Origin: Candidatus Izemoplasma sp.
GTDB lineage: Bacteria; Bacillota_I; Bacilli_A; Izemoplasmatales; Izemoplasmataceae
Direction: 5' to 3'
DNA: 64,000 bases
Assembly: GCA_021736205.1 (NCBI GenBank)
Contig: JAIPGF010000003.1
Span: 7,772 to 71,771, forward strand
Shown here: one piece after another, positions 451-62,919 of the stretch
How positions within the stretch are numbered: position 1 is the first letter of the stretch
Layout of the letters: every line of letters begins with the position of its first letter
Position numbers and translations under genes: made by a program
The notes under the pieces: model-generated
What the model saw: only the letters and a program-made list of their open reading frames with translations
Database searches by the model: none
What the model was told of the DNA's origin: nothing

Positions 451-1479
451 TTATTTGTCATTTGGCGTATATTTTTTATAATCAATCCAAATGTATTTAT
501 CATCCTCTAAATCACTCATAATATCGCTTAGTTTTTCTCCAGTCACTAAGGCATTTGTAAGCTCATTAATTGCTAATGCCATTGATTTTGAATCATTTAA
601 GACTGTCCCTGAGAGATACCCTTGATCAATTAACTCTAAGGCAATTGGTAGCCCATCAATCCCTACTACTGGCATCCAAGTTTCTGTGTCTCTATCTATC
701 ACACCATTATCATTCTCATCAACAAAATACCCTTCTTCTTTTAAGACTTCAATAGCGCCAATGGCCATCGCATCATTATTTGAAATGACTAATTCTATTG
801 TATTACCAAATTCAACTAATAAATCTGTCATCTTTTCTTTTGCTATCTCTTGTGAAAAATAGGCTTCTTCAATAATTAGTATGTCTATATGGAATCCGCG
901 GTCAGTTAATTCTTGAACAACTCTTTCCGTTCTTATTTCTGCATCTTGGTGACCAGGTTCTCCTTTTAAAATAACACATTGGATATTATTATCATTGTTT
1001 TTATCTAGTTCATTTAAATAATAAGAATTTCCTCCGAATAAATCAATAATAATATCTGCTTGAAAAATAGCTGATTGTTCTGGTTTAGCGCCAACATAAA
1101 ATAGTTGATCGTAAGAATACATATCTTCTTTCAGTGGTTCTCTATTAATAAAAATAATAGGCACATCTTTTTCTTTTGCTTTTTCAATTATTGGATAAAC
1201 ACCTAGACGATCTACAGGATTAACAATAATAACACGTGGGTTATCCAAAAAGACATCATTTATGATATCGTTTTGAATGATTTGTGAGTTTTTTGAATCA
1301 TATGATTCAAAACGATATGAATTATAATTTTTATTATCATAAATTAGCTCTTCAAATTGCTGCATATAAAGATCATCGTAGTCGTAAATAATAAGTGGAA
1401 CTTCGACTTCTTTTGTTCTGCAACCTGTTAGAAATAACCCAAGTGATATAAATAGAAACGCTATAATTAACTTTTTCAT
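451..1479 (-). CDS. periplasmic sugar-binding-protein-fold lipoprotein, probable ligand-sensing partner of the adjacent kinase
   Basis: 342 aa ORF with a lipobox (LTGC). It has a type-1 periplasmic binding protein pattern (VIIVNPVD, DVPIIFINRE, ISNNDAMAIGA). It lies 4 nt downstream of the kinase gene. Confidence 0.7.
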   Translation of the reverse strand: MKKLIIAFLFISLGLFLTGCRTKEVEVPLIIYDYDDLYMQQFEELIYDNKNYNSYRFESYDSKNSQIIQNDIINDVFLDNPRVIIVNPVDRLGVYPIIEKAKEKDVPIIFINREPLKEDMYSYDQLFYVGAKPEQSAIFQADIIIDLFGGNSYYLNELDKNNDNNIQCVILKGEPGHQDAEIRTERVVQELTDRGFHIDILIIEEAYFSQEIAKEKMTDLLVEFGNTIELVISNNDAMAIGAIEVLKEEGYFVDENDNGVIDRDTETWMPVVGIDGLPIALELIDQGYLSGTVLNDSKSMALAINELTNALVTGEKLSDIMSDLEDDKYIWIDYKKYTPNDK

Positions 1480-1483
1480 TGTA

Positions 1484-3199
1484 TCATCCTTTTTCTAGTG
1501 GGAAGTATATCTGAATCGTTGTACTTTCATCTAAAACACTCTTTATATGTATTCCTGAGCGTTCTCCATAATATAACTTTAGACGCTGTACAACATTTTT
1601 AAGACCAATACTTTCATGGTTATCATTCTGTATCTTTTCATAAATCTCTTCTATTTGTTCATCAGTTAATCCATACCCATTATTCATAACCTCGAAATAG
1701 ATAAACCCATCTTTTTTATATACAGAAATATCAATTTGACCTTTAAACTCTGTGCTAATTCCATGATGTATGGCATTTTCGATAATAGGCTGCAATATAA
1801 GTTTAACAACTTTTTTATCTTTGATTGATTCTTCAACGTTTACAGTATATTCAAATTTATTAGAATATCTAATTGTTTGAATTTTTAAGTAATATTTGGC
1901 ATGTTGAATTTCTTTATCAATCGTAATAATATCTTTTCCTCTTGAAATACTTATTCTGAAGAAGCGACTAAGTGCCATAACCATTTCTATAACATGTTCG
2001 TTATCATTTTGTTCTGAAAGCCAAATAATAGAATCAAGTGTGTTATATAAAAAGTGTGGATTAATTTGTGTTTGAAGCGCAATCAATTCTGTTTTACGTT
2101 TTTCATTTTGTTCATCAACAAGTTGATTCATTAATCCTCTAATTTCTTTAATCATCTCATTATAAGCCGCAGCTAAGATTACAACTTCTTTTTGTCCACG
2201 TACTTCAACTTCTTTATATAGATGATCACTATGTTGTATATCAGTCATGTGCTCTTTTAATTTATTTAAGGGTCTTGTTATTTGCTTTGTTAATATAGAA
2301 GCTATTAATGTTGAAATGAAAATTGTTACAACCAAGACGGTTGATAAAAGAAAAAATATCGATATTTTTGAACTTCCAATCAAATCAACATTAATAAACG
2401 TCGCGATACGCCACCTTGTTCCATGTATCGTATTAATACTCACATACATATCTGTACCATCAATTGATACAAAATCGCCACCGATAATGATTTTTCTAGC
2501 TATAACGTTACTATCACAGGTAGAATTTTGACATTTGTCTGTCGAAGAATAAATCAATTGATTTTTATCGCTAATAATAATTAGATGTCCATTTTCACCT
2601 AAATTGGTTTGTTTAGCAAGGGTGTCTATTTGTTCAGTACTTAATTCAATTAATAAAACACCTGAGTATTTTTGTGAATATTCATAATAATCAATTTGTT
2701 TAGATACACTAATTACTTGTTCATTACTATCAACAAAGACATCTTGTGGATGGGGTGTTGAAAAGAAATACACTTCTTCGTTATCAATTGCCCGATCAAA
2801 CCAATAACGTTCTGTTAAATCCTCATAAGCTGAATAGTTTAGTTTACTTGTTGCAGCAATTGTACCATCCATCTTTACTAAACTAATCGTAATTGTGTCA
2901 CTATTTAATGTTGCAACATTACTATATATTTCATGTAAACTTTCTTGATTCGCAATTTCAACTTCTTTGGTTTTTAATTCAATGTAATTCGCAAGATCTC
3001 TAACATCATTAAAATAGTTTTCATAATTTAAAATGATTTGTTTATTAATCTCTTTAGAGTTTGCTTCTACAATTTCATCAACTGTATTGTATGTATTTAT
3101 ATAGATAAACGCGCTCGCGAACAACAATGCGGTAGACAACAATAAAATTACAGCATAATTAAGCTTTCTGTCAATGCTTAATTGTTTAAACCATTTCAT
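1484..3199 (-). CDS. sensor histidine kinase, YesM/LytS-type (two TM segments, extracytoplasmic domain, HAMP, His_kinase, HATPase_c)
   Basis: 571 aa. The INPHFLYNTLDSI motif marks the PF06580-type phosphoacceptor region. The C-terminal ATPase part contains ENAIHHG and GYGL. It overlaps the regulator gene by 14 nt. Confidence 0.85.
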   Translation of the reverse strand: MKWFKQLSIDRKLNYAVILLLSTALLFASAFIYINTYNTVDEIVEANSKEINKQIILNYENYFNDVRDLANYIELKTKEVEIANQESLHEIYSNVATLNSDTITISLVKMDGTIAATSKLNYSAYEDLTERYWFDRAIDNEEVYFFSTPHPQDVFVDSNEQVISVSKQIDYYEYSQKYSGVLLIELSTEQIDTLAKQTNLGENGHLIIISDKNQLIYSSTDKCQNSTCDSNVIARKIIIGGDFVSIDGTDMYVSINTIHGTRWRIATFINVDLIGSSKISIFFLLSTVLVVTIFISTLIASILTKQITRPLNKLKEHMTDIQHSDHLYKEVEVRGQKEVVILAAAYNEMIKEIRGLMNQLVDEQNEKRKTELIALQTQINPHFLYNTLDSIIWLSEQNDNEHVIEMVMALSRFFRISISRGKDIITIDKEIQHAKYYLKIQTIRYSNKFEYTVNVEESIKDKKVVKLILQPIIENAIHHGISTEFKGQIDISVYKKDGFIYFEVMNNGYGLTDEQIEEIYEKIQNDNHESIGLKNVVQRLKLYYGERSGIHIKSVLDESTTIQIYFPLEKG

Positions 3200-4775
3200 G
3201 ATTACGATACTCCCTTGGAGATGAACCAGTTACTTTTTTAAAACTATGACTAAAATAATAAACATCTTTATACCCTACCTTAACTGAGATATCGACAATC
3301 TTTAAGTCGGATGTTTTAAGAAGTTCTTTCGCCTTATCCATTCGCATTTTTATTAAGTACTTACTAAACGTGTATCCACTATGCTTTTTAAACAACATGC
3401 TTAAATATGATATTGAAACATTTAATTCCTGGCTTAATTGTTCAAGCGACATAGATGGATCTGGGTAATTTTGCTTAATGTAATCTATCGCTCTTTGTGT
3501 TAATTCCTCACTATGTGATAGTTGCTTACGTGTATCCTGTTCACGAATCTTTAAAATGATATCAAGGAAATAATCAATCATTTCTTCATAACGCGTATAA
3601 ATGTTTAACTCGCTTACTAAATCAATATTTGTTATTTCATCCAACGGAATTTTTGCTTGTTCAGCTAAATTAATTAATAAACTTGATAATTCAATTATGA
3701 CATATTCTCTAATATATTTACTTTTATCTTGTATAATACGTTCTTTTAACTCATTTGTTTTCTCTTTAATCATTTCTTCTTTACCATACTGAATCAAACG
3801 ATCAAATGAATTAAAATCACTTATAGAAATAAATGATTGTTTAATCTCAGCGTTATACAGTTCTTCAGCGAAAACAATGTTGTTATAATTAAATAAATTC
3901 GCATAACTTAACGCTCTTTTAGCTTGATTGTAGGATTTGGGAAATGCTTCAAAATTGGAATACTTATTTGACACACCTATAAGTAGTCCTGATTCTAAAA
4001 ATTCTTTAGAGGATTGTGATAATTCAAATAATAATTCATCAGCTTTGTTTTTTTCATATGTTTCAAGAGAAAAAATAAACACAATCCCGTCTGCTACTAG
4101 TAACGTATGTTTAAAGGGGATTGATTTGAACACCTTTTTAAACATTTCATTTGTATTAATTTTAATTCTCTCTATAGATTTTAAAGAAGTCTTTTTTGAA
4201 TTAACACTGACTAAAGCAGTAGTAAAATTTGATTGATTTGATACATCAATCCCATATAAACTTAACTTTTTAATCCCTTCTTCACTAATTTTATCTAAAT
4301 TAATCAAAGAACTTAAATAACTATCCCCAATAATTGGTAGTAGTTCTTCATATTTCTCTTTCATAACCATAATGTCTTTCATTTGTTTATAATCACTATC
4401 AAGATTCTTTTTTAAATCTTTTAAAAACATATTAATTTCTTTTGAGCTGATGGGTTTCATGATATAATTATCAACTTGTAGAGAAACAGCTTCTTTTGCA
4501 TAATTAAATTCATCATACCCCGTAATAAATGCCACCTTGATCATCGGATAATCACGACGAATAATCCTTGTTAACTCAATCCCATCAACAAAAGGCATTT
4601 TAATGTCTGTTAAAACAACATCGACATCTTTCTCTTCAATAAGTTCTAATGCATCATGACCATTCCCTGCAGATCCAACTATATTAAATCCTATATCCGA
4701 TGATATTTTTGAAGCAATTCTACCTCTAATTTCATCTTCATCATCAACTAATATAATGTTATATGTTTTTGCCAT
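3186..4775 (-). CDS. response regulator, CheY receiver + AraC-type HTH (YesN-like)
   Basis: 529 aa. The N-terminus ILVDDEDEIR...DVVLTDIKMP is a receiver domain. The C-terminal part (SISYLSMLFKK...GYKDVYYFSHSFKK) is an AraC HTH. Confidence 0.9.
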   Translation of the reverse strand: MAKTYNIILVDDEDEIRGRIASKISSDIGFNIVGSAGNGHDALELIEEKDVDVVLTDIKMPFVDGIELTRIIRRDYPMIKVAFITGYDEFNYAKEAVSLQVDNYIMKPISSKEINMFLKDLKKNLDSDYKQMKDIMVMKEKYEELLPIIGDSYLSSLINLDKISEEGIKKLSLYGIDVSNQSNFTTALVSVNSKKTSLKSIERIKINTNEMFKKVFKSIPFKHTLLVADGIVFIFSLETYEKNKADELLFELSQSSKEFLESGLLIGVSNKYSNFEAFPKSYNQAKRALSYANLFNYNNIVFAEELYNAEIKQSFISISDFNSFDRLIQYGKEEMIKEKTNELKERIIQDKSKYIREYVIIELSSLLINLAEQAKIPLDEITNIDLVSELNIYTRYEEMIDYFLDIILKIREQDTRKQLSHSEELTQRAIDYIKQNYPDPSMSLEQLSQELNVSISYLSMLFKKHSGYTFSKYLIKMRMDKAKELLKTSDLKIVDISVKVGYKDVYYFSHSFKKVTGSSPREYRNHEMV

Positions 4776-4835
4776 GTTCTCACCACCTAATATAAATTAA
4801 TTATACAACAAATTATTAATTATTAAATACAATAT

Positions 4836-4872
4836 AGAAAAAGACAACATTTCAAAATTGAAATGTTGTCTT
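4836..4872 (-). terminator. rho-independent terminator after the heliorhodopsin gene
   Basis: Near-perfect inverted repeat AAGACAACATTTCAA / TTGAAATGTTGTCTT (4841-4872), followed on the minus strand by a T-run (plus-strand A-run 4837-4842). Confidence 0.7.
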
Positions 4873-4896
4873 ATCAAATTTAAATGATGCTAATTA

Positions 4897-5700
4897 TTAT
4901 GGCTGTAATGCACCAACTAAAACCAACCATGCTAAGACTGATTTAGCTACCAAACTTAAAATAATGTATCCGCGTTCTCCGTATAAATAATTTTTCCATT
5001 TTCCTTTTTTTAAATATTGGAAAATCATATTTACAGGAAATGAGTTAAATGCAATGAAGTACGTAATAACAATCGCCCAGACAAACCAAGGTGTCTCAGC
5101 GGTTGCTTCTGGTGAAGCGCCTGTCATATACAAAATAATAGCTATCCATGGTGCCAAGCCTGCAATGCTTCCCCAAATAAATGGTCCCCAATTAACATCT
5201 TCTTTTTCTTTACCTGAGTTTAATTGTTCCATCACAAGACCAAATAAATTCATTGATGCATTAACAAGAAAAATCAAAATAAGTGATGCGATATCCCATA
5301 CACCAAATAAATATGCTATAAGGACTATCATAATTGATGAACTAAGTGCATACTCAAACCATCTAAATCTATTAATACCTTTTTCTAGATCTTTATTATA
5401 GATAGTATTAAATTTCTCTGGCAGTGAGATTAAAGCATGTGCTATTGCAGAAATTAATAGAAACATAGCAACTAAAACAAAAAATGGTAACGTAAATGCC
5501 TCGGTTCGTGCAAAAGCTAAGTATCCTTGTCCAGGTCCTGTTTCAACAAATGTTAAATAATGCTGATAAAGTTGCATTTTAAAATCTCCAAGATCACTAA
5601 GAACTAATCCAAGAATAATCATAAGAATACCTTGAACTAAATGAAATGCACCCATAATGATATTGAATTTTCTTAAACTTTTTAAAGATGTTTTTTCCAT
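4897..5700 (-). CDS. heliorhodopsin (7-TM retinal protein with inverted topology)
   Basis: 267 aa. It aligns by eye with heliorhodopsin 48C12 along its whole length: FNIIMGAFHLVQ, FRWFEYALSSSIMIVLIA (counterion Glu), VNASMNLFG, and GERGYIILSLVAKSVLAW (Schiff-base Lys in SLVAKS). Confidence 0.85.
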   Translation of the reverse strand: MEKTSLKSLRKFNIIMGAFHLVQGILMIILGLVLSDLGDFKMQLYQHYLTFVETGPGQGYLAFARTEAFTLPFFVLVAMFLLISAIAHALISLPEKFNTIYNKDLEKGINRFRWFEYALSSSIMIVLIAYLFGVWDIASLILIFLVNASMNLFGLVMEQLNSGKEKEDVNWGPFIWGSIAGLAPWIAIILYMTGASPEATAETPWFVWAIVITYFIAFNSFPVNMIFQYLKKGKWKNYLYGERGYIILSLVAKSVLAWLVLVGALQP

Positions 5701-6031: not shown

Positions 6032-6060
6032 TTGACATTTATATTATTCTACCCTATAAA
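6032..6060 (+). promoter_or_regulatory. sigma-A promoter (TTGACA-17-TATAAA) for the riboswitch-led fibre-subunit operon
   Basis: TTGACA at 6032-6037, a 17-nt spacer, and TATAAA at 6055-6060. It sits about 20 nt upstream of the aptamer-like element. Confidence 0.55.
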
Positions 6061-6079
6061 CATAATGAACAAAAAATTA

Positions 6080-6158
6080 AAGAAGGAAAAGGCATTCTTG
6101 AAGAAATTCAAGCGATCGCAAAACTATAGGGCCTGTAAAATGGTAGCCAGTTACCACG
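6080..6158 (+). promoter_or_regulatory. c-di-GMP-I (GEMM-I) riboswitch-like aptamer, copy 1
   Basis: A GNRA-capped hairpin TTGAA-GAAA-TTCAA (6098-6111) is followed by GATCGCAAAACTATAGGGCC, a short hairpin, and TAGCCAGTTACC (6144-6155). This matches the remembered GEMM-I core (GACGCAAAGC..GGG ... AGC.G.UUACC of Vc2). It shares CTATAGGG and TAGCCAGTTACC exactly with copy 2 on the other strand. Confidence 0.65.
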
Positions 6159-6183
6159 TATTTTTATGGTAGCTGGTTTTTTT
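6147..6183 (+). terminator. intrinsic terminator forming the expression platform of riboswitch copy 1
   Basis: A 10-bp stem CCAGTTACCA (6147-6156) / TGGTAGCTGG (6167-6176) contains one G-U pair. It has a 10-nt loop and then TTTTTTT (6177-6183). The 5-prime arm is the conserved 3-prime strand of the aptamer. Confidence 0.7.
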
Positions 6184-6224
6184 ATTGCTATATACAGACT
6201 TTAATTATGATTGGAAGTGATCAG

Positions 6225-6827
6225 ATGATTACACGGAGATTTGTTCAGATCAGTACAGTAGCTATATTATTAATAGGGTTTATCTTTACATCAGGTTCTG
6301 CGTTTGCTTATTGGAGAGAAGTTAATGTTTCCAGAGATGTAGAAATCGTAAAGATAGGAGAACCTATTGAAATAATAGTTGACGATATCTATTCTGAAAG
6401 TAATCTTCATTTAGTCCCAGAAGGATACATTATAAGTGTTCAAGATGTTGAAGAAGTCCAACTTGAATATGAAGTAAGTGTTTCTCGAGAACTAATAAAT
6501 ACTGTTAATTTAAATATACGAGCTGTTGATATTTTAATTGATGGTTCTGATACTTATAGCCATCTTGTAGATATATCAATTATGGGTTTAGGTAGCGAAG
6601 CTCAGTTAGATCTCTTTAATGAAGCTTTAACAATTTATGTTACAGTAAGACTAGAAGAACCATTTGATGAAGAAGAAGTTGTAGGGAAAAACTTAGATGA
6701 ATCCCTTGTGAATGTGGAAGACTCTGAGTTAGCTTATCAAACAATAACAGGTAAGACCATAACATTCACACTAAATTTTGAATTAGAAGTAAAAGAAATT
6801 TCTAGCAACGACAATTCACAGAATTGA
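6225..6827 (+). CDS. secreted protein with a SipW-cognate-type signal peptide (paralogue A of the fibre-subunit family)
   Basis: The ORF track starts at 6207. The ATG at 6225 (MITRRF...) follows GGAAGTGA and is the likelier start. The hydrophobic N-terminus ends in GSAFAYWRE. The C-terminus ITGKTITFTLNFELEV matches the ends of the 6873 and 9627 proteins. Confidence 0.7.
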   Translation: MITRRFVQISTVAILLIGFIFTSGSAFAYWREVNVSRDVEIVKIGEPIEIIVDDIYSESNLHLVPEGYIISVQDVEEVQLEYEVSVSRELINTVNLNIRAVDILIDGSDTYSHLVDISIMGLGSEAQLDLFNEALTIYVTVRLEEPFDEEEVVGKNLDESLVNVEDSELAYQTITGKTITFTLNFELEVKEISSNDNSQN

Positions 6828-6872
6828 TAAAATATAAAAAATAAATTAAAAAAATTAAAAGGAGAATAAAAA

Positions 6873-7403
6873 ATGAAAACAAAAAAATTAGGAATAGCGT
6901 TATTAGTAATGTTAGCGCTAGTAGTTACAACCGGAACATTTGCTTATTGGGCAAGTAGTGTAACAGACGGAACTAATACTGTTGGTGGGACTGTTACTGT
7001 TGGTACTGGTGAACAAGTTACAACTACTGTAACGGTAACTGCTCAATCTGATTTAAACGGCAATTTGGTACCTGTTGGATTTGAAGATGCAACAAAAGTT
7101 AATAATCTTGACTTAACGTTCCCAGTTACTTGGACTGCCGATCAAGCAGGTGCAGATGGAATCGTCGGAAATTTAAATGTAACAATTTCCAATTATGCTA
7201 TTGGTACACTTACTGGGACTGCTGTAACAGATATGTTTACAGTAACAATAACATCAGGTTCCGGAGCAATCACTGAAGGTGTATCACAAAATGTTATTAT
7301 CAATGTTGAATTTACAAATGAACCAACTGATTCAACTACATACAGCCAAGTTGCTGGAAACGACTTAACATTTGATGTTACATTTACAGCATCAGCCAAC
7401 TAA
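6873..7403 (+). CDS. secreted Thr/Val/Gly-rich protein with a SipW-cognate-type signal peptide, candidate major TasA-like fibre subunit (paralogue B)
   Basis: Strong RBS AAAGGAGA. The signal peptide ends in TGTFAYWASSV. The body is T/V/G-rich (TVGGTVTVGTGEQVTTTVTVTAQ) and has no Cys. The C-terminal motif is EPTDSTTYSQVAGNDLTFDVTFTASAN. Confidence 0.75.
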   Translation: MKTKKLGIALLVMLALVVTTGTFAYWASSVTDGTNTVGGTVTVGTGEQVTTTVTVTAQSDLNGNLVPVGFEDATKVNNLDLTFPVTWTADQAGADGIVGNLNVTISNYAIGTLTGTAVTDMFTVTITSGSGAITEGVSQNVIINVEFTNEPTDSTTYSQVAGNDLTFDVTFTASAN

Positions 7404-7442
7404 TAATTAGAAAATAAACTTAATATTTAAGGTGGTGATAAA

Positions 7443-7754
7443 ATGAGTATTAAAAAGAAATTACTGTTAGTATCTACTTTGCTACTGACACTTTTTGGTG
7501 CTACGTTTGTCACTGATAATTCTTATGCGTATTGGGCTTCAAGTATTTCATCTACTCAACAAACTACTACTGGTACTGTAACAGTTAGCTCATGGAATTT
7601 TATTCCAATTTGGGACAGTACAACAACCTATTATTCAGGTGATGTTGTTGAGTATAACGGATCTTATTATGAAGCTAAAAAGACAAATACAAATGAAGAA
7701 CCAGAAATTGCTAAAGGTTGGAGAAGTAACTGGACTCAAACTACAGTTAACTAA
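7443..7754 (+). CDS. small secreted protein: SipW-cognate-type signal peptide fused to a CBM5/12 (chitin-binding type) module
   Basis: RBS AAGGTGGTG. The signal peptide ends in NSYAYWASSIS. The tail WDSTTTYYSGDVVEYNGSYYEAKKTNTNEEPEIAKGWRSNW fits the W..Y..GD.V.Y.G..Y.A...P...W pattern of CBM5/12. Confidence 0.7.
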   Translation: MSIKKKLLLVSTLLLTLFGATFVTDNSYAYWASSISSTQQTTTGTVTVSSWNFIPIWDSTTTYYSGDVVEYNGSYYEAKKTNTNEEPEIAKGWRSNWTQTTVN

Positions 7755-7764
7755 ATACACAAAT

Positions 7765-7803
7765 AAATAGGCACATATAAATCCGTGCCTATTTATTTTT
7801 TTT
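7765..7803 (+). terminator. rho-independent terminator ending the fibre-subunit transcript
   Basis: Perfect 10-bp stem AAATAGGCAC (7765-7774) / GTGCCTATTT (7785-7794), then a T-run to 7803. Confidence 0.85.
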
Positions 7804-7804
7804 A

Positions 7805-7813
7805 TGCTATAAT
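7805..7813 (+). promoter_or_regulatory. extended -10 element (TGcTATAAT) for the signal-peptidase genes
   Basis: TGCTATAAT lies immediately after the terminator and 16 nt before the AGGAGG at 7830-7835. Confidence 0.4.
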
Positions 7814-7841
7814 ATCCTTAAAGAAACTTAGGAGGTCCTTA

Positions 7842-8393
7842 ATGATGAAAAATTCACAAATAAAAGAAAATATAACTATATTTGGATCAGCTATTTTAAT
7901 CGCAATATTGATCATATATATTCTTTTTCAATTGTTTATGCCTAAACTTACTATAAAAGTCTTTGGTGCTAAGCCCTATAACGTTATTACTGAAAGTATG
8001 GAACCTGTATTAGATGTAAATGATATCGTTGTTGTGAAACGCTTTAAAATAGATAACGCAGAAGAAGGCGATATTATAACTTTTAATGCAGATATTAATT
8101 ATGATGGCACAAAAGAAATTGTAACCCATTATATTTATTCTATAACTGGAACTGATGAAAATAGAGTTATTAGGACGAATAGACATTATGACAACATGAA
8201 CAATGCCGTTCCTGACACATGGTTCCTTAATGAGGACGATGTAATTGGTACTTACTGGTTTCATATTCCAAAATTAGGTTATGTTAGTGAGTTTTTAAAA
8301 AGTCCTTTTGGTATTGCTGCAATGATAGTCAATATAGGCGTTATTGTTGGTGTCGTATATCTAATTAAACAAGGGAATGAAGTTAAGGAATAG
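7842..8393 (+). CDS. sipW: signal peptidase I, SipW / ER-archaeal type (paralogue 1)
   Basis: The ORF-track start at 7785 lies inside the terminator. ATGATG at 7842 follows AGGAGG. Motifs match B. subtilis SipW: VITESMEP (nucleophile Ser), GDIITF, VTHYIY (His), GTYWFHIPKLGYV, and a C-terminal TM. Confidence 0.8.
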   Translation: MMKNSQIKENITIFGSAILIAILIIYILFQLFMPKLTIKVFGAKPYNVITESMEPVLDVNDIVVVKRFKIDNAEEGDIITFNADINYDGTKEIVTHYIYSITGTDENRVIRTNRHYDNMNNAVPDTWFLNEDDVIGTYWFHIPKLGYVSEFLKSPFGIAAMIVNIGVIVGVVYLIKQGNEVKE

Positions 8394-8402
8394 GTTTTTA
8401 AA

Positions 8403-8981
8403 ATGTCTAAAAATAAAAATAATATCAAGCAAAAACTTAAATTATTATACTTAAAAATAAAAAAGACCAAAACTACCCATTTTATATTTTTAGGTATTTT
8501 AGTACTCTCAGTCGTAAATATTTCTATTATGAGCTTATTTTTTTATGATAACGATTATAATTATAAAATAATGAACATATCTTATATAAGCGCCATCACA
8601 CCTGAACAAGATGTGAATGAAACATTGTATACCAACGTTATTAAAATCAAGGAATTCAACTTAAATAACGCAACTATTGGTGATTTAGTCATAATCTATG
8701 ATGATTTTAGTACCAATGAATACTGGGTAGAGAAAATCATCGATATAAATGAAACAACCAAAGAAATAACAGTCACTTATGATGAAGTTTCAAACAACAA
8801 CATTTCTTATAACAATATATATGGAACATACATTAAGAAAGCAAATATCTTTGGAACAATTTATCACACAGCTATGTTTACTAGAGGATATATCTTACTT
8901 GTGTTTAGTCACATTTTTATTCTAGCGGCTTATTATACTTATTTTATCCTCCATGTAAAGGAACCAAAAAAGCGAATTTGA
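8403..8981 (+). CDS. SipW-fold paralogue lacking the catalytic residues (predicted pseudo-peptidase)
   Basis: It has the same architecture as its neighbours: N-terminal TM, GDLVIIYDD, IYGTYIKKANIFGTIY, C-terminal TM. SAITPE replaces S(D/E)SMEP, and EYWVEKII replaces VTHY. Confidence 0.6.
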   Translation: MSKNKNNIKQKLKLLYLKIKKTKTTHFIFLGILVLSVVNISIMSLFFYDNDYNYKIMNISYISAITPEQDVNETLYTNVIKIKEFNLNNATIGDLVIIYDDFSTNEYWVEKIIDINETTKEITVTYDEVSNNNISYNNIYGTYIKKANIFGTIYHTAMFTRGYILLVFSHIFILAAYYTYFILHVKEPKKRI

Positions 8982-8990
8982 GGTGTCTAG

Positions 8991-9557
8991 ATGAAAAAAC
9001 ACATTGGTAAGTTCTTCATATATTTAATTTACACACTATTAATTAGTTATATTGTCATTACAGTGTTTTTTCCAAATAAAAGTACAGATATATTAGGCTT
9101 TCGTACATTCGTTGTTATATCAGATAGCATGGAGCCTAAAATAAATGTGTATGATATGGTTGTTATTAAAAAGGTCGATAAAGAAGACATACAAGTATCT
9201 GATATCATTACGTTTAAAGTCTATATTCCAGAAGTTGATTCAAAAAGTTATGTAACGCACTATGTTGACGAAATAATTATTAATTCTGAGAATGAGACAA
9301 TCTACAAAACACAGGGTGAATCGACTGCCGAAAATCCTGATGTTTGGACTGATGCAGATGGCAATGTTATAGATATCAGCTACAATGATGTCGAAGGAGT
9401 TTATCTTTTTAAGATTCCTAAAATTGGTCGGTTAATATATCTGTTAAGGGATCCTATCTTTGTCGGATTACTAATAGTAAATGGTTTCGTCATTTACTTT
9501 GTGTACAAATATATTAAAAAGTTACTATTTGATGCTAAAAATGAGAAAAAGGACTAG
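8991..9557 (+). CDS. sipW: signal peptidase I, SipW / ER-archaeal type (paralogue 3)
   Basis: RBS GAGGTG. Motifs are VVISDSMEP, SDIITF, YVTHYVDE, KTQGEST, GVYLFKIPKIGRL and a C-terminal TM. Confidence 0.8.
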   Translation: MKKHIGKFFIYLIYTLLISYIVITVFFPNKSTDILGFRTFVVISDSMEPKINVYDMVVIKKVDKEDIQVSDIITFKVYIPEVDSKSYVTHYVDEIIINSENETIYKTQGESTAENPDVWTDADGNVIDISYNDVEGVYLFKIPKIGRLIYLLRDPIFVGLLIVNGFVIYFVYKYIKKLLFDAKNEKKD

Positions 9558-9579
9558 ATTTTAAAATCTAGTCCTTTTA
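9550..9579. terminator. bidirectional terminator between the convergent peptidase and paralogue-D genes
   Basis: Perfect palindrome AGGACTAGATTTT / AAAATCTAGTCCT (9550-9575). It is flanked by A-rich sequence on the left and TTTTAA on the right, and it overlaps the TAG stop at 9555-9557. Confidence 0.7.
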
Positions 9580-9626
9580 ATATAAAGAAATAATATATAT
9601 TTAGAGAATACTCTTAAAGAATTAGG

Positions 9627-10133
9627 TTAATTTGCATAAAATGATACATTAAACATCAGTTGTCCACCAGCCAGTTGTTGGTACAACTCGTGGGTGCTTG
9701 GCTCGTTCATGGAAATACTTAATGAAACAATCACACGGATTGCTGATTCTTTACCCTCAAAAAGATGCTCTGAATAATCTAATGATTCTACTGTTTCTAT
9801 GTCGATATGGAAATTGAAAATAGCTTCAAGATTAGCTTCTGTTACAGTTGAATTAGAAAATACTAAATCAATTATTTCAGCATCCAACACCAAACCATCT
9901 TTAACAATCAGTTCATATTCATACTGTATAGTATGTACATCATTCACTGTACGAACTTGATTAGAAGGGATCAACGTGCTCTTGCTATCACTAATTAATG
10001 TTTCATTGATAATGTAGCTATCAGATGTTTCATTGATATAAACATTATCATCTTTTACAACACTTGCATAAATAGATGTTGTTGTTGAAAAAATTAAAAA
10101 AATCAAAACTAGACTTTTTAAGATGTTTTTCAT
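9627..10133 (-). CDS. secreted protein, paralogue D of the fibre-subunit family
   Basis: The ORF-track start at 10160 is unlikely. The ATG at 10133 (MKNILKSLVLIF...) follows AGGAG (10142-10146). LIPSNQVRTVNDVHTIQYEYELIV and EPSTHELYQQLAGGQLMFNVSFYAN parallel LVPEGYIISVQDVEEVQLEYEVSV and ITGKTITFTLNFELEV of paralogue A. Confidence 0.7.
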   Translation of the reverse strand: MKNILKSLVLIFLIFSTTTSIYASVVKDDNVYINETSDSYIINETLISDSKSTLIPSNQVRTVNDVHTIQYEYELIVKDGLVLDAEIIDLVFSNSTVTEANLEAIFNFHIDIETVESLDYSEHLFEGKESAIRVIVSLSISMNEPSTHELYQQLAGGQLMFNVSFYAN

Positions 10134-10160
10134 CTTAACCACTCCTATGGGGGTTAACAT

Positions 10161-10245
10161 CAGGTAACTGGCTATCTCGGTGAGATCCTTCTCAGTGAGA
10201 CCCTATAGCTTTCCGTCACAAGATTGCTCCTGCTTTGGCTTTATC
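10161..10245 (-). promoter_or_regulatory. c-di-GMP-I (GEMM-I) riboswitch-like aptamer, copy 2
   Basis: The minus strand reads GCCAAA-GCAGGA-GCAA-TCTTGT-GACGGAAAGCTATAGGGTCTCAC..GAGATAGCCAGTTACC. That is a GNRA (GCAA) tetraloop hairpin, a GACG.AAAGC core, a long P3-like hairpin and a 3-prime AGCCAGTTACC. The element order matches the Vc2 c-di-GMP-I aptamer as I remember it. Confidence 0.7.
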
Positions 10246-10297
10246 AAATATCAACACCATAGAAATGAAATCTCTATAGTTTTGATTTGATACTTTA

Positions 10298-10325
10298 ATT
10301 ATACTACATCTATGGTATTTGTCAA
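10298..10325 (-). promoter_or_regulatory. consensus sigma-A promoter (TTGACA-16-TATAAT) for riboswitch copy 2
   Basis: On the minus strand, TTGACA is at 10325-10320, followed by a 16-nt spacer and TATAAT at 10303-10298. Confidence 0.6.
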
Positions 10326-10364
10326 ACAAACAACGGTAATGACTTTTAAATAATCTTTTGGTTT

Positions 10365-11603
10365 CTATCTAATTATATCCAAAAAGACATCTACAATAGC
10401 CGGATCAAATTGTTTTCCACGATTATCAATTAATTCTTGAATTGTTTTTTCTTCAGATAATGCTTTTCGATAAATACGATCATTAGACATTGCATCATAC
10501 GCATCTACAACAGCTAAAATTCTAGATAATAATGGAGTTTCTTCCCCTTTTAGTTCTTTTGGATACCCTGTCCCATCCCACCGTTCATGGTGTGTTAATA
10601 TATAATAAGAAATAGCTTCTAATTGGGGCACACCGCTTGCGATTTTATATCCAATAATAGGATGCTGTTTCATTTTATTATATTCTACTTTAGTCAGTTT
10701 TCCAGGCTTTTTTAAAATACTATCATCAATACCAATTTTACCTATATCATGTAAGATAGCAAATAATTTTAAATCATTGATGTCATTTGTTTTTAAATCT
10801 AATTTATACCCTAATTGTGCGCAAAGTTTTTCCATTCGTGATGCGTGTTGCTCAGTTTCATCACTACGCTCAAACAAGGATGTTTTTAAAGATTTAACAA
10901 GTGAACTACTCGCACTTTTAACTAATAACAATTTATTTTTAAGCATACTATCTTCAGCATATGACAGCGTAGAATAAATATTTTTAGAATCAGACGTCGT
11001 ACTAAATCCCATAGCTACAGTCAGTTCTATATCTTTGAATATATTATAATCTAAATTTTTTCTAATTTTTTCAATCATATTTTCGATATGTTTTTTCTTA
11101 GTATGATAAAAAATGACACAAAACTCATCGCCGCCAACGCGCGCAATGAAAGTCTCATCAGATAAGCTATCTTTTAAGATTTCTGCATAACTTGAAAGTA
11201 GTTTGTCCCCATATTCTGAGGAATAAAACTCATTTATTAATTTTAACCCATTAATATCAGTAATAAGAATAGATGCTTCAATCTCCTGTGAATAAATACG
11301 GTTTAATTCTTGATCAAAACTACTTCTATTATGTACCCCTGTAAGTAAATCAAAGTTTTCTAACTGCACTATATTATCTTCAGCTTTTTTTATAAGAGAA
11401 ACTTCTCTTTTTACCAAATAATAGATAATCAAAGCAGAAATCACGATAAAAAATAACCCTTTTATTGTTGATGTATATCTATATTGATAAACATCATCGA
11501 TCACAACCAATAAGATATAATCTGATAAAAAAATCCAAGATGCGCTAAATAATAGGTAAATGATTGAAACTCTAAAGGCAGATGTAATATTTTTATTTTC
11601 CAT
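10365..11603 (-). CDS. membrane-anchored GGDEF diguanylate cyclase fused to an HD-GYP phosphodiesterase domain
   Basis: It has N-terminal TM helices and a literal GGDEF (ARVGGDEFCVIF). HD-GYP signatures are HDIGKIGI and HHERWDGTGYP. The ORF track starts at a GTG at 11612; the first ATG is at 11603. Confidence 0.9.
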   Translation of the reverse strand: MENKNITSAFRVSIIYLLFSASWIFLSDYILLVVIDDVYQYRYTSTIKGLFFIVISALIIYYLVKREVSLIKKAEDNIVQLENFDLLTGVHNRSSFDQELNRIYSQEIEASILITDINGLKLINEFYSSEYGDKLLSSYAEILKDSLSDETFIARVGGDEFCVIFYHTKKKHIENMIEKIRKNLDYNIFKDIELTVAMGFSTTSDSKNIYSTLSYAEDSMLKNKLLLVKSASSSLVKSLKTSLFERSDETEQHASRMEKLCAQLGYKLDLKTNDINDLKLFAILHDIGKIGIDDSILKKPGKLTKVEYNKMKQHPIIGYKIASGVPQLEAISYYILTHHERWDGTGYPKELKGEETPLLSRILAVVDAYDAMSNDRIYRKALSEEKTIQELIDNRGKQFDPAIVDVFLDIIR

Positions 11604-11960
11604 ATAAATCACTTAAGGGGTTTTAGATAACTACTACTCCCTTAACCTCCTATATATAATTATATCATTTAAATCACATATAAAAAGCAATATAAGTTTA
11701 CAGAAAACTTTTTTTATTGTTTTCTTTGTTAAATAAAAACAATACAGGTTGTTTAAAATCTGTATACTCTCTTATCGATGTAATTTTTATACTCATCTAT
11801 GAAATTTATAACTTTTTTTGATATATCTCTTATTTCTTATTATTTTTCCGAAAATACCATCATTAAGACAATTATATAATTAACTACAAATCATATAGAA
11901 AAAAATCCCAGAAACACCTACAACTTTTAGTAGATATGTTTTCTAGGATATGAATTTTAC

Positions 11961-12036
11961 TGGTGGAGAATACTGGGCTCGAACCAGTGACCCCTTGCTT
12001 GTAAGGCAAGTGCTCTCCCAACTGAGCTAATCCTCC
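11961..12036 (-). tRNA. tRNA-Val (anticodon TAC)
   Basis: The minus strand reads GGAGGATTAGCTCAGTTGGGAGAGCACTTGCCTTACAAGCAAGGGGTCACTGGTTCGAGCCCAGTATTCTCCACCA. It folds as a cloverleaf, the anticodon loop is CTTACAA, and the CCA end is encoded. Confidence 0.95.
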
Positions 12037-13149: not shown

Positions 13150-13225
13150 TGGTGACCCGTACGGGGTTCGAACCCATAAGTGCATGCGTGAAAGGCATGT
13201 GAGTTAACCATTTCTCCAACGGGCC
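13150..13225 (-). tRNA. tRNA-Glu (anticodon TTC)
   Basis: The minus strand reads GGCCCGTTGGAGAAATGGTTAACTCACATGCCTTTCACGCATGCACTTATGGGTTCGAACCCCGTACGGGTCACCA, with anticodon loop CTTTCAC. Confidence 0.95.
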
Positions 13226-13318: not shown

Positions 13319-13409
13319 TGGCGGAGTAGGAGAGATTTGAACTCTCGCGCCGCGTAAACGACCTATACCCTTAGCAGGGGCACCTCTTAAGCCACTTGAG
13401 TACTACTCC
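13319..13409 (-). tRNA. tRNA-Ser (anticodon GCT), long variable arm
   Basis: The minus strand reads GGAGTAGTACTCAAGTGGCTTAAGAGGTGCCCCTGCTAAGGGTATAGGTCGTTTACGCGGCGCGAGAGTTCAAATCTCTCCTACTCCGCCA, with anticodon loop CTGCTAA. Confidence 0.95.
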
Positions 13410-62821: not shown

Positions 62822-62847
62822 AAAAAAATAGAGAATTACCTCTGTTA
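62822..62847 (-). terminator. weak putative terminator (expression platform of the guanine riboswitch)
   Basis: The minus strand reads AACAGAG-GTAATT-CTCTATTTTTTT, a short AT-rich stem plus T7, directly after the P1 3-prime strand. Confidence 0.4.
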
Positions 62848-62849
62848 TT

Positions 62850-62919
62850 ATATCATAGTCCCAAATGTTACGGTCTGGGGTAGAGACAATCGAACCTTAT
62901 TTTCGATCATATATGATAT
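62850..62919 (-). promoter_or_regulatory. purine riboswitch, guanine-type (C at the specificity position)
   Basis: The minus strand reads ATATCATA-TAT-GATCGAA-AATAAGG-TTCGATT-GTCTCTAC-CCCAGA-CCGTAACA-TTTGGG-AC-TATGATAT. P1, P2 and P3 and the junctions match the B. subtilis xpt aptamer (UAUAAU..GUUUCUACC..CCGUAA..GACUAUG). The junction 3/1 reads AC, so it is guanine class. Confidence 0.85.

What the first reader, a model, noticed from the sequence alone, without database searches (positions are those of the whole stretch)
6032..11612. c-di-GMP-gated TasA/SipW-class fibre or adhesin locus with three signal-peptidase paralogues, bracketed by two riboswitches and a GGDEF/HD-GYP enzyme
Seen directly: four small secreted proteins are encoded at 6225-6827, 6873-7403, 7443-7754 and 9627-10133. 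Three of them end their signal peptides in (F/Y)AYW(A/R)(S/E), the shape of the SipW-cognate signal peptides of TasA/CalY/camelysin-type proteins (G-T-x-A-x-F/W). Three (A, B, D) share a C-terminal EP...Y..(I/L/V)(A/T)G..(L/I).F.(V/L).F motif. Between them lie three tandem SipW-type signal peptidase genes instead of the single sipW of the B. subtilis tapA-sipW-tasA operon. The subunit genes on both strands lie behind GEMM-I-like leaders with consensus promoters. The peptidase genes are insulated by a strong terminator (7765-7803) and have their own extended -10 element. The next gene encodes a membrane GGDEF + HD-GYP protein. Inference: a second-messenger-controlled extracellular fibre/adhesin system. 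Its subunits are made only at high c-di-GMP, and its dedicated processing machinery is expressed separately. I do not know of a described system combining riboswitch pair, triple SipW set with a dead paralogue, and a CBM-tipped minor subunit.
Basis: partly seen in the sequence, partly recalled or inferred. Interest (0 to 1): 0.9.

Follow-up and report, generated by a model that had tools for sequence, protein, structure and literature searches.

The report
c-di-GMP-switched fibre/adhesin locus, wall-less bacterium
A wall-less marine bacterium (Candidatus Izimaplasma) carries a conserved gene cluster in which two c-di-GMP riboswitches turn on four small secreted proteins that look like distant cousins of the Bacillus biofilm fibre TasA, while two active and one dead SipW-type signal peptidases are expressed separately; it is a new variant of two known themes, not yet described.

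Summary
All the sequence observations hold. Two c-di-GMP-I riboswitches pass Rfam's thresholds (6081-6158 +, 10160-10249 -). Four small secreted proteins are encoded: A, B and D are paralogues, and C is a CBM5/12 protein. A, B and C share a (F/Y)AYW signal-peptide end. Three tandem ER/SipW-type peptidase genes follow. Two keep the Ser/His dyad; the middle one is a homologue that has lost both residues. They sit behind a terminator and a TGnTATAAT extended -10. A GGDEF + HD-GYP gene lies next door. The architecture recurs in about 12 other Izemoplasmatales/Mycoplasmatota genomes, including the cultured wall-less Xianfuyuplasma coldseepsis.

The subunits belong to a large family with no Pfam or NCBIfam assignment (762 representative clusters). 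Sequence similarity to TasA covers only the signal peptide and N-terminal strand. The AlphaFold model's best PDB match is the TasA fibre, but weakly (TM 0.48).

Best reading: high c-di-GMP switches on subunit synthesis, and pre-made peptidases cleave the subunits. They then probably assemble by N-terminal donor strands into a fibre or adhesin, with a chitin-binding, donor-only subunit at one end. Polymerisation is inferred, not shown.

Novelty: new variant of a known kind. Interest about 0.6.

The parts
6032..6060 (+). Promoter of the A-B-C operon: TTGACA (6032-6037), 17-nt spacer, TATAAA (6055-6060)
   Evidence: Read directly from the sequence. The scan missed it because that scan requires a T at the last -10 position.
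6081..6158 (+). c-di-GMP-I riboswitch aptamer (A-type)
   Evidence: RF01051, 42.8 bits against a gathering score of 35, E 5.1e-5. An orthologous aptamer lies upstream of the A gene in 9 other loci.
6142..6183 (+). Expression platform: an intrinsic terminator (GGUAGCCAGUUACCAC...UGGUAGCUGG followed by U7) whose 5' arm is the 3' strand of the aptamer
   Evidence: The minimum-free-energy fold forms the terminator (z = -3.1). The same arrangement occurs in all A-type leaders. ON-switch logic is inferred.
6225..6827 (+). Subunit A (200 aa): secreted paralogue with an acidic insertion; signal peptide ends in FAYW
   Evidence: hhalign against the B family gives probability 98.8%. No Pfam or NCBIfam family.
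6873..7403 (+). Subunit B (176 aa): likely the major subunit. It has the signal end GTFA|YWAS, an N-terminal strand GTVTVGTG and a beta-sandwich core.
   Evidence: Homologues. AlphaFold models (pLDDT 77.6 and 86.3). The Foldseek top hit is the TasA fibre 8aur_A.
7443..7754 (+). Subunit C (103 aa): the same signal peptide and a B-like N-terminal strand (YWASS...TGTVTV), fused to a CBM5/12 module and lacking the beta-sandwich
   Evidence: CBM_5_12 at 26.1 bits here; orthologues score 29.6, 30.8 and 50.5 bits. Alignment.
7761..7803 (+). Intrinsic terminator ending the riboswitch-controlled A-B-C transcript
   Evidence: A 14-bp hairpin plus a T8 run. A hairpin plus T-run is present in about 10 of 12 orthologous spacers.
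7805..7813 (+). Extended -10 promoter element TGCTATAAT for the peptidase operon
   Evidence: TGnTATAAT occurs in the same spacer in 12 of 12 loci.
7842..8393 (+). Peptidase 1: ER/SipW-type signal peptidase I with intact SMEP serine and THY histidine
   Evidence: TIGR02228 at 74.3 bits (cut-off 51.85) and Peptidase_S26 at 31.4 bits. The family profile matches SEC11A/C at 1e-12.
8403..8981 (+). Pseudo-peptidase: a membrane protein homologous to peptidases 1 and 3 that lacks the catalytic Ser and His
   Evidence: No library hit. hhalign against the active paralogues gives 97.2%, E 3.7e-11. The residues are lost in all 9 orthologues. The family has only 17 clusters, all from Izemoplasmatales-type sources.
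8991..9557 (+). Peptidase 3: a second ER/SipW-type signal peptidase I from a distinct orthologous group, with SMEP and THY intact
   Evidence: TIGR02228 at 60.7 bits. Alignment.
9547..9578 (.). Palindromic hairpin between the convergent peptidase-3 and D genes; likely a bidirectional terminator
   Evidence: 14-bp stem.
9627..10133 (-). Subunit D (168 aa): a paralogue of A and B with signal end SIYA|SVV, under its own riboswitch
   Evidence: hhalign D vs B 97.2% and D vs A 98.0%. ORF.
10160..10249 (-). c-di-GMP-I riboswitch aptamer (D-type). It has no terminator, and the Shine-Dalgarno sequence and ATG lie within 27 nt.
   Evidence: RF01051, 56.4 bits, E 2.4e-8. A D-type aptamer precedes every D orthologue. 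The anti-SD pairing is inferred.
10298..10325 (-). Consensus promoter TTGACA-16-TATAAT of the D leader
   Evidence: 12 of 12 match.
10365..11612 (-). Membrane GGDEF + HD-GYP protein (c-di-GMP synthesis and/or hydrolysis)
   Evidence: GGDEF at 82.2 bits and HD_5 at 132.5 bits. The GGDEF, HD and GYP motifs are seen in the translation. GGDEF genes also neighbour the locus in L005, L006 and L010.

Best explanation
This is a c-di-GMP-induced, SipW-processed extracellular fibre or adhesin system of wall-less Izemoplasmatales.

Shown here:
- Two c-di-GMP-I aptamers head the A-B-C operon and the D gene.
- The peptidase genes sit behind a terminator with their own promoter.
- A, B and D are paralogous beta-sandwich proteins with a SipW-cognate-like signal peptide.
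- C has the same signal and N-terminal segment, but a CBM5/12 module replaces the sandwich.
- Two peptidases are intact ER/SipW-type enzymes, and the third is a conserved dead paralogue.

Inferred mechanism:
1. At low c-di-GMP the A-type leader folds into its terminator. The D-type leader pairs its 3' tail (CCUGA/CCUUA) with the Shine-Dalgarno region, so no subunits are made.
2. At high c-di-GMP, set partly by the neighbouring GGDEF/HD-GYP protein, ligand binding locks the aptamer's 3' strand. Transcription of A-B-C reads through and D is translated.
3. The constitutively made peptidases cleave after the aromatic-Ala site (GTFA|YW). This exposes an N-terminal strand (YWASS..GTVTVG).
4. As in TasA, that strand inserts into the sandwich of a neighbouring subunit, and a fibre of B grows. 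A and D act as minor, nucleating or anchoring subunits.
5. C can donate a strand but cannot accept one. It therefore occupies one end of the fibre and presents a chitin-binding module there.
6. The dead paralogue probably serves as a non-catalytic partner or substrate-holding subunit of the peptidase pair.
For: Regulation
- Riboswitches pass Rfam in the window and at equivalent positions in every sufficiently complete related locus: 10 A-type and 10 D-type.
- The two aptamer classes differ by compensatory pair changes, and the AGCCAG and CGCAAA/CGGAAA cores are conserved.
- A terminator overlapping the aptamer is found in all A-type leaders; SD-proximal D-type leaders have none.
- The terminator plus TGnTATAAT before the peptidases is conserved.

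Peptidases
- TIGR02228 hits and SEC11 matches.
- The dead paralogue's homology to the active ones and its loss of Ser and His.

Subunits
- Paralogy of A, B and D.
- A large family without Pfam or NCBIfam assignment: 762 clusters, some fused to Ig-like, LRR or Flg_new adhesin-type domains.
- Cognate_SipW hits in 10 of 41 members and Peptidase_M73 hits in 8 of 137.
- hhalign aligns B residues 1-57 with TasA residues 1-59, that is, signal peptide plus donor strand.
- In the full-length model the roughly 25 residues after the cleavage site are disordered (pLDDT below 50). They reach only pLDDT 53-75 in the mature-protein model, ahead of a confident sandwich.
- The TasA fibre 8aur_A is the top PDB hit for both models (probability 0.99 and 1.00). 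Donor-strand pilins (PapG pilin domain, CsuA/B, CfaB) and Pyrobaculum bundling pili also appear in the list.

Precedent
- TasA's donor strand is residues 28-38, right after the SipW site. TapA's N-terminus mimics that strand (PMC9674648).
- C's CBM5/12 module is conserved across orthologues.
Against: - No member reaches the Peptidase_M73 or TIGR04088 cut-offs robustly.
- hhalign against the TasA family gives only 38.7% probability and does not cover the globular domain.
- Foldseek E-values are weak (2-4e-3) and TM is at most 0.48. Generic beta-sandwiches follow closely in the hit list.
- The peptidases might be the organism's general signal peptidases. I could not check the rest of the genome for a LepB-type enzyme.
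- The dead paralogue is absent from L001 and L007, so it is not essential to the system.
- L003 keeps only one intact peptidase.
- The translational mechanism of the D-type riboswitch rests on short pairings only.
Confidence: 0.55

Rival explanations
1. The four proteins are c-di-GMP-induced surface or secreted proteins that do not polymerise, for example monomeric adhesins or a small hetero-complex that binds chitin or other particles. They share only the SipW-type export signal with TasA. The beta-sandwich is then a binding or spacer domain.
For: - Sequence similarity to TasA stops after the N-terminal strand.
- Structural matches are weak, and ordinary beta-sandwich domains score nearly as well.
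- Family members fused to Ig-like, LRR and Flg_new repeats look like classical monomeric surface adhesins.
- A distant member, L014, stands alone without peptidases or a riboswitch.
Against: - Three or four paralogues with a conserved, disordered N-terminal strand motif are co-transcribed.
- C carries that strand but has no sandwich, which is hard to explain without strand donation.
- The TasA fibre form, rather than a monomeric sandwich, is the top hit for both models.
Confidence: 0.3
2. The three peptidase genes are the housekeeping signal-peptidase set of this reduced-genome lineage, possibly forming a hetero-oligomeric complex like the eukaryotic SPC. On this reading they are not a dedicated processing machine, and their position next to the riboswitch-controlled genes reflects shared ancestry with a sipW-tasA-type operon rather than exclusive function.
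For: - They have their own constitutive-looking promoter and are insulated from the riboswitch.
- They are ER/SEC11-type.
- Many Mollicutes lack a recognisable LepB-type signal peptidase (general knowledge, not tested here).
Against: - Strict synteny with the cognate-signal substrates holds in all 12 related loci.
- In the 64-kb window the FAYW signal is restricted to the adjacent genes.
- The dead paralogue is confined to genomes that have this locus.
Confidence: 0.25
3. The small proteins are precursors of ribosomally synthesised peptides or bacteriocin-like products, as JGI's automatic name for some homologues suggests ('predicted ribosomally synthesized peptide with SipW-like signal peptide').
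For: The JGI label appears on P0029, P0055 and P0059.
Against: - The proteins are 170-200 aa with a confidently folded beta-sandwich.
- No modification enzymes, immunity genes or transporter genes are in the locus.
- The label merely reflects a TIGR04088 hit.
Confidence: 0.02

Closest known systems
Bacillus subtilis tapA-sipW-tasA operon (TasA donor-strand-exchange biofilm fibre; PMC9674648)
   Same: - A dedicated ER-type signal peptidase gene is clustered with its substrates.
- The signal peptide ends in G-T-aromatic-A followed by an aromatic residue.
- A strand-forming segment follows the cleavage site directly.
- The core is a beta-sandwich or jellyroll whose best structural match is the TasA fibre.
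- An accessory protein (TapA there, C here) has an N-terminus that mimics the major subunit's donor strand.
   Different: - The globular domain is not detectably homologous by sequence and is about 150 aa mature, against about 230 aa for TasA.
- There are three or four paralogous subunits.
- There are two active peptidases plus one dead one, instead of a single sipW.
- Control is by c-di-GMP riboswitches rather than SinR/SinI.
- The host has no cell wall to anchor a TapA-like protein.
- A CBM5/12 module is present.
c-di-GMP riboswitch-controlled adhesins and pili: Clostridioides difficile pilA1 type IV pili and CD2831, Bacillus thuringiensis Bc2-cap, Vibrio cholerae Vc1-gbpA (from my own knowledge of the literature)
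   Same: - A GEMM-I or GEMM-II aptamer acts as an ON switch in the 5' leader of an adhesin or pilus gene, so surface attachment follows high c-di-GMP.
- Vc1-gbpA also links c-di-GMP to a chitin-binding adhesin.
   Different: - The controlled genes belong to a different, uncharacterised protein family.
- Two riboswitches of distinct sequence class and, by prediction, distinct mechanism (transcriptional and translational) govern parts of one system.
- The processing enzymes are deliberately excluded from the regulon.
Archaeal bundling pili AbpA of Pyrobaculum calidifontis (PMC9245690) and Clostridium perfringens BsaA (TIGR04090; PMC7395162, PMC11580942)
   Same: - Both are TasA-like, SipW- or signal-peptidase-processed matrix fibres outside Bacillus.
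- 7ueg appears in the Foldseek list.
- TIGR04090 gives weak hits to 2 family members.
   Different: - The matches are weak (probability 0.35-0.54; E about 0.02).
- No isopeptide-forming motif was examined.
- Gene order and regulation differ.
Eukaryotic signal peptidase complex (SEC11A/C plus non-catalytic subunits; PDB 7p2p/7p2q)
   Same: - The catalytic paralogues are SEC11-type.
- A non-catalytic membrane partner is encoded alongside them.
   Different: - Here the non-catalytic partner is itself a degenerate S26 paralogue, not an SPC1/2/3-type protein.
- Complex formation is purely hypothetical.

Membership tests
c-di-GMP-I riboswitch (Rfam RF01051) | Score at or above the curated gathering threshold of the covariance model | tested here: met
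   42.8 and 56.4 bits against a threshold of 35. Orthologous leaders score 41-60 bits.
c-di-GMP-I riboswitch (Rfam RF01051) | Conserved ligand-contacting core: the equivalents of Vc2 G20, A47 and C92 (the mapping comes from my memory of the Vc2 structure) | tested here: met
   The A(G)GC/GCC, CGCAAA/CGGAAA and AGCCAG cores are invariant or nearly so across 20 aptamers. The single exception is an A at the G20-equivalent position in the L001 A-type leader.
c-di-GMP-I riboswitch (Rfam RF01051) | Actual binding of c-di-GMP and ligand-dependent gene control | not testable with these tools
   There are only folding predictions of the expression platforms.
SipW / ER-type signal peptidase I (TIGR02228; MEROPS S26B) | Passes the curated model; SMxP serine box and downstream histidine box | tested here: met
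   Peptidase 1 scores 74.3 bits and peptidase 3 scores 60.7 bits against a cut-off of 51.85. SMEP and THY are conserved. SEC11A/C match at 1e-12.
SipW / ER-type signal peptidase I (TIGR02228; MEROPS S26B) | The same criteria applied to the middle gene (8403-8981) | tested here: not met
   No hit to any S24 or S26 model. Ser and His are both replaced. It is homologous only at profile level, so it is a pseudo-enzyme.
Bacillus SipW equivalog (NF046067) | Score at or above 190 bits | tested here: not met
   56.2 and 55.3 bits. They are the same type of enzyme but not orthologues of Bacillus SipW.
SipW-dependent-type signal peptide (TIGR04088 cognate_SipW) | Score at or above 19 bits on the 34-residue signal-peptide model | tested here: inconclusive
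   B scores 14.4 bits, which is below the cut-off. Ten of 41 family members hit at E up to 1, the best at 3.8e-5. JGI annotates some homologues this way.
TasA/CalY/camelysin family (Pfam PF12389 Peptidase_M73) | Sequence membership: score at or above 22.5 bits, or profile-profile homology over the globular domain | tested here: not met
   There is no hit for A, B or D. Eight of 137 family members give sub-threshold hits, the best at 4.5e-4. hhalign against 32 TasA-family sequences gives 38.7% probability over only 61 columns, covering the signal peptide and N-terminal strand.
TasA/CalY/camelysin family (Pfam PF12389 Peptidase_M73) | Jellyroll/beta-sandwich fold superposable on TasA | tested here: inconclusive
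   8aur_A is the top hit for both models (probability 0.99 and 1.00), but E is 2-4e-3 and TM is 0.34-0.48.
TasA/CalY/camelysin family (Pfam PF12389 Peptidase_M73) | Fibre assembly by N-terminal donor-strand exchange | not testable with these tools
The only indirect support is the disordered N-terminal strand in the monomer models.
CBM family 5/12 (Pfam PF02839) | Score at or above 26.2 bits | tested here: inconclusive
   The window's C scores 26.1 bits. Orthologues score 29.6, 30.8 and 50.5 bits, and others 20-25 bits. Family-level membership is likely; chitin binding is untested.
GGDEF / HD-GYP c-di-GMP enzymes | Pfam domains above threshold and intact GGDEF, HD and GYP motifs | tested here: met
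   GGDEF at 82.2 bits and HD_5 at 132.5 bits. The motifs VGGDEF, HDIGK and GTGYP are read in the translation.

The most novel reading that the evidence does not exclude
A previously unrecognised class of donor-strand fibre ('pilus') in wall-less bacteria. Its assembly platform would be a hetero-oligomeric signal-peptidase complex made of two active SEC11/SipW-type subunits and one dead paralogue, which in some species is fused to a cytoplasmic XRE HTH domain and so could report assembly state to transcription. The complex would cleave the subunits, hand them over for polymerisation and anchor the fibre in the membrane. That would replace the cell-wall anchoring used by TasA/TapA and the usher or sortase machines of other pili. 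The whole system would be gated by two mechanistically different c-di-GMP riboswitches and tipped by a chitin-binding, donor-only cap.
Probability: 0.15. Interest if true: 0.85.

Novelty: new variant of a known kind. Interest (0 to 1): 0.6.

Why it matters
- It would extend TasA-type, signal-peptidase-dependent fibre systems to the wall-less Mycoplasmatota lineage, where nothing can anchor a fibre to peptidoglycan.
- It defines a large (hundreds of clusters), entirely unannotated protein family as candidate fibre or adhesin subunits.
- It offers a clean natural example of regulatory partitioning. Substrates are under two riboswitches of different predicted mechanism, while the processing enzymes are constitutive and transcriptionally insulated.
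- The conserved dead SipW paralogue, sometimes fused to an HTH domain, is a new pseudo-enzyme to study.
- The CBM5/12 cap suggests how free-living Izemoplasmatales attach to chitinous marine particles.
- Xianfuyuplasma coldseepsis zrk13 is cultured (PMC8397711) and carries the locus, so the predictions can be tested directly.

Tried and rejected
1. Tandem B-B prediction. I concatenated mature sequences into alignment A11 to test donor-strand insertion.

2. The search for related loci with the 41-sequence alignment failed for lack of a conserved stretch. The 10-sequence version returned only 8 genomic loci, so the taxonomic survey is thin.

3. Profiles of the B family against PDB sequences gave only noise. 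TasA cannot be reached by sequence profile alone.

4. hhalign of the A family against TasA gave nothing (probability 1%).

5. I looked for names or taxa for distant family members with the listing of cluster members. None carried an informative name.

6. I checked whether a distant fused member (P0166, locus L014) keeps the riboswitch or peptidase context. It does not; the upstream RNA is a tmRNA. The riboswitch link therefore belongs to the A-B-C/peptidase/D locus, not to the whole protein family.

7. I considered that peptidase 1 serves A, B and C while peptidase 3 serves D. I rejected this as unsupported. L003 lacks D yet keeps the peptidase-3-type enzyme as its only intact one.

8. Literature searches for any description of this system found nothing relevant. 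The term sets were SipW + c-di-GMP + riboswitch; Izemoplasma + c-di-GMP; c-di-GMP riboswitch + TasA; Izimaplasma + pili; and riboswitch + camelysin.

9. The JGI label 'ribosomally synthesized peptide' was rejected (see rival explanations).

Full report
**Source**

Subunit B is 100% identical to a hypothetical protein of a Candidatus Izimaplasma sp. MAG (locus tag K9L74_01280). The middle peptidase-like gene matches K9L74_01295 of the same MAG. The flanking genes are ordinary chromosomal ones:
- a sugar-binding protein with a Cache histidine kinase and an AraC-type response regulator;
- a heliorhodopsin;
- tRNAs;
- an alpha/beta hydrolase;
- Tex, WhiA, UvrA, LigA and PcrA.

The locus is therefore not on an obvious mobile element.

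**Checking the observation**

Signal peptides:
- A, B and C end their hydrophobic N-termini in SAFAYWRE, GTFAYWAS and NSYAYWAS.
- A motif scan of every ORF in the window finds this arrangement in these three adjacent genes only.
- D ends in SIYA|SVV, which keeps the aromatic(-2)-Ala(-1) pattern but lacks the YW.

The shared C-terminal motif reflects real paralogy. Profile-profile comparison of family alignments built from 8 to 41 orthologues gives:
- A vs B: 98.8%, E 7.6e-17;
- D vs B: 97.2%, E 2.9e-11;
- D vs A: 98.0%.

The other listed features also check out.
- Rfam finds c-di-GMP-I aptamers at 6081-6158 (+; 42.8 bits) and 10160-10249 (-; 56.4 bits), both above the gathering score of 35.
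- A hairpin at 7761-7798 is followed by T8, then TGCTATAAT (7805-7813), AGGAGG and the ATG at 7842.
- The next gene on the minus strand has GGDEF and HD-GYP (HD_5) domains with intact motifs.

**The peptidases**

- Genes 1 and 3 pass NCBIfam TIGR02228, the ER/archaeal-type signal peptidase I model to which SipW belongs. They score 74.3 and 60.7 bits against a cut-off of 51.85.
- They fall far below the Bacillus SipW equivalog model (about 56 bits against 190).
- A profile of 14 orthologues matches human SEC11C and SEC11A at 1e-12 to 1e-11.
- The SMEP serine box and the V-T-H-Y histidine box are invariant or nearly so.
- The two genes form separate orthologous groups.

The middle gene matches nothing in Pfam or NCBIfam. 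Even so, its family profile aligns end to end with the active paralogues (97.2%, E 3.7e-11). In all nine orthologues the serine box reads A-I-x-P-x-Q-D and the histidine box reads D-E-Y-W-V. It is therefore a conserved pseudo-peptidase. The family is tiny, with 17 clusters, all from Izemoplasmatales or 'Tenericutes' sources or from unnamed metagenomes.

**The subunits**

- A, B and D have no Pfam or NCBIfam family.
- A full HMM search with the B-family profile finds 762 representative clusters at E up to 1e-3, and 538 at E up to 1e-10.
- None of the members I looked up carries an informative name.
- Some members carry C-terminal Ig-like, Flg_new or BspA-type LRR domains, which are typical of surface adhesins.

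Evidence on a link to TasA:
- At sub-threshold level, the most frequent library hits across family members are TIGR04088 (SipW-dependent signal peptide; 10 of 41, best 3.8e-5) and Peptidase_M73/TasA (8 of 137, best 4.5e-4).
- I built a 32-sequence TasA-family alignment and compared profiles. The only aligned region is B residues 1-57 against TasA residues 1-59, that is, signal peptide plus the segment after it. The probability is 38.7% and E is 3.2e-4.
- In TasA, residues 28-38, immediately after the SipW site, are the donor strand that builds the fibre (PMC9674648).
- The AlphaFold2 model of full-length B shows a signal helix, a disordered stretch (residues 21-48, pLDDT below 50) and a confident beta-sandwich.
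- The mature-protein model reaches pLDDT 86.3.
- For both models the best of more than 1,200 PDB matches is the TasA fibre 8aur_A (probability 0.99 and 1.00). E is only 2-4e-3 and the best TM is 0.48.
- Donor-strand pilins (PapG pilin domain, CsuA/B, CfaB) and the Pyrobaculum bundling pilus appear lower in the list, among generic sandwiches.

I conclude that the family works plausibly like TasA but is not a demonstrable member of the TasA/camelysin family.

**Subunit C**

- C has the same signal peptide and an N-terminal segment that copies B's: YWASSISS..TGTVTVSS against YWASSVTD..GGTVTVGT.
- Where B has the sandwich, C has a CBM5/12 module. It scores 26.1 bits here and 29.6, 30.8 and 50.5 bits in orthologues.
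- A protein that can donate a strand but has nothing to accept one would sit at one end of a donor-strand polymer.
- This mirrors the proposal that TapA's N-terminus supplies the first donor strand to TasA (PMC9674648).

**Conservation**

Using B homologues I retrieved 12 further loci.
- L001 is the cultured, wall-less Xianfuyuplasma coldseepsis zrk13 (CP048914; PMC8397711).
- L012 is Mycoplasmatota strain zrk2 (CP076020).
- The rest are MAG or metagenome contigs. The named ones are labelled Izemoplasmatales/Izemoplasma, Mycoplasmatota, Bacillales, Bacilli or Clostridia bacterium.

The core order recurs: riboswitch, then A-B-C, then peptidase 1, pseudo-peptidase, peptidase 3. D carries its own riboswitch and lies either upstream on the same strand or downstream on the opposite strand.

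Variations on this pattern:
- Every locus complete enough to judge has the A-type aptamer (10 of 10).
- Every D gene has a D-type aptamer (10 of 10).
- L001 and L007 lack the pseudo-peptidase.
- L003 lacks D, and its first peptidase has TMEP/TYY in place of SMEP/THY.
- In L009 and L010 the pseudo-peptidase carries an N-terminal XRE-type HTH domain (65 bits).
- GGDEF genes adjoin the locus in the window, L005, L006 and L010.

**Regulatory logic**

The 20 aptamers fall into two sequence classes. These differ by compensatory changes in the first helix (GGC..CGC against GCC..CGG or GCU..CAG). The AGCCAG and CG(C/G)AAA cores are invariant.

- All A-type leaders continue into a hairpin plus U-run whose 5' arm is the aptamer's own 3' strand (GCCAGUUACC). 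The ligand-free minimum-free-energy fold forms this terminator. Ligand binding should therefore prevent termination, giving a transcriptional ON switch.
- D-type leaders have no terminator. The Shine-Dalgarno sequence lies 15-30 nt after the aptamer and can pair with the CCUGA/CCUUA tail. That tail would otherwise close the outer helix of the bound aptamer. I infer a translational ON switch, with less certainty.
- The C-peptidase spacer contains TGnTATAAT in 12 of 12 loci and a hairpin plus T-run in about 10 of 12.

Separate, riboswitch-independent expression of the peptidases is thus a conserved design feature.

**Mechanism proposed**

1. c-di-GMP rises, partly through the adjacent GGDEF/HD-GYP protein.
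2. A-B-C is transcribed and D is translated.
3. Resident peptidases cleave after FA or YA.
4. The freed N-terminal strands mediate polymerisation of B, with A and D as minor subunits and C as a chitin-binding end cap.
5. The dead paralogue acts as a non-catalytic partner.

Steps 1 and 2 rest on strong sequence and comparative evidence. Cleavage is inferred from family knowledge. Polymerisation and the roles of A, C, D and the pseudo-enzyme are hypotheses.

The main rivals are:
- non-polymerising adhesins that share only the export signal;
- the peptidases being the lineage's general signal peptidases.

**Comparison with known systems and novelty**

- c-di-GMP riboswitches that switch on pili or adhesins are known (C. 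difficile, B. thuringiensis, V. cholerae gbpA; from my own knowledge).
- SipW-dependent TasA-type fibres are known in Bacillus, Clostridium and archaea (PMC9674648, PMC9245690, PMC7395162).
- Five targeted full-text searches found no description of this locus, of c-di-GMP riboswitch control of a SipW system, or of such fibres in Izemoplasmatales.

The new elements are:
- the subunit family;
- the two-active-plus-one-dead peptidase set;
- the dual riboswitch classes;
- the donor-only CBM cap;
- the wall-less host.

I rate it a new variant of a known kind, with interest 0.6.

Noticed in passing
window 4897-5700 (-): A heliorhodopsin gene (Pfam 309 bits, NCBIfam HeR 293 bits) lies immediately upstream of the riboswitch promoter and is divergently oriented to the A-B-C operon. 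Whether light sensing links to this locus is unknown.
   Followed up: no
L009 2095-3069 and L010 9765-10739: In two related genomes the dead SipW paralogue is fused to an N-terminal XRE-type HTH_3 domain (65 bits), followed by a long linker and the transmembrane segment. This would be a membrane-tethered transcription factor with an extracellular pseudo-peptidase domain. It is reminiscent of SinR (XRE family) controlling tapA-sipW-tasA in Bacillus.
   Followed up: partly
L003 10062-10538, 8615-9904: In this genome the first peptidase paralogue has TMEP/TYY instead of SMEP/THY, so it is probably inactive too. There is no D gene. The C-equivalent is 429 aa with a strong CBM_5_12 hit (50.5 bits).
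   Followed up: partly
L001 7191-7267 and 10942-11016: In Xianfuyuplasma coldseepsis the A-type aptamer has an A where all other 19 aptamers have G. By my mapping this is the Vc2 G20 equivalent, the position that shifts specificity towards cGAMP in GEMM-Ib. Its D-type aptamer scores best with the variant model RF03167 (c-di-GMP-I-GGC). Ligand specificity may differ in this species.
   Followed up: no
L004 10945-14928; L005 10897-14880: A 1327-aa protein with no Pfam hit lies directly downstream of peptidase 3 on the same strand in two loci. It could be a large adhesin or anchor belonging to the system.
   Followed up: no
window 62836-62936 (-): Purine riboswitch aptamer (RF00167, 66.9 bits).
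   Followed up: no
window 451-4775 (-): A sugar-binding protein (Peripla_BP_4), a Cache/HAMP His_kinase-type sensor and a response regulator with an AraC HTH (YesM/YesN-like) sit upstream of the heliorhodopsin. This could be a carbohydrate-sensing input near a locus with a chitin-binding module.
   Followed up: no
window 11964-12036, 13153-13225, 13322-13409 (-): Three tRNA genes lie just beyond the GGDEF/HD-GYP gene. In L008, tRNAs also lie next to the locus (4749-5017).
   Followed up: no
L014 8001-9662: A distant family member (553 aa, fused to Flg_new repeats) stands alone after smpB and a tmRNA gene, with no riboswitch and no peptidase genes. The subunit family is therefore broader than the riboswitch-controlled locus.
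   Followed up: yes
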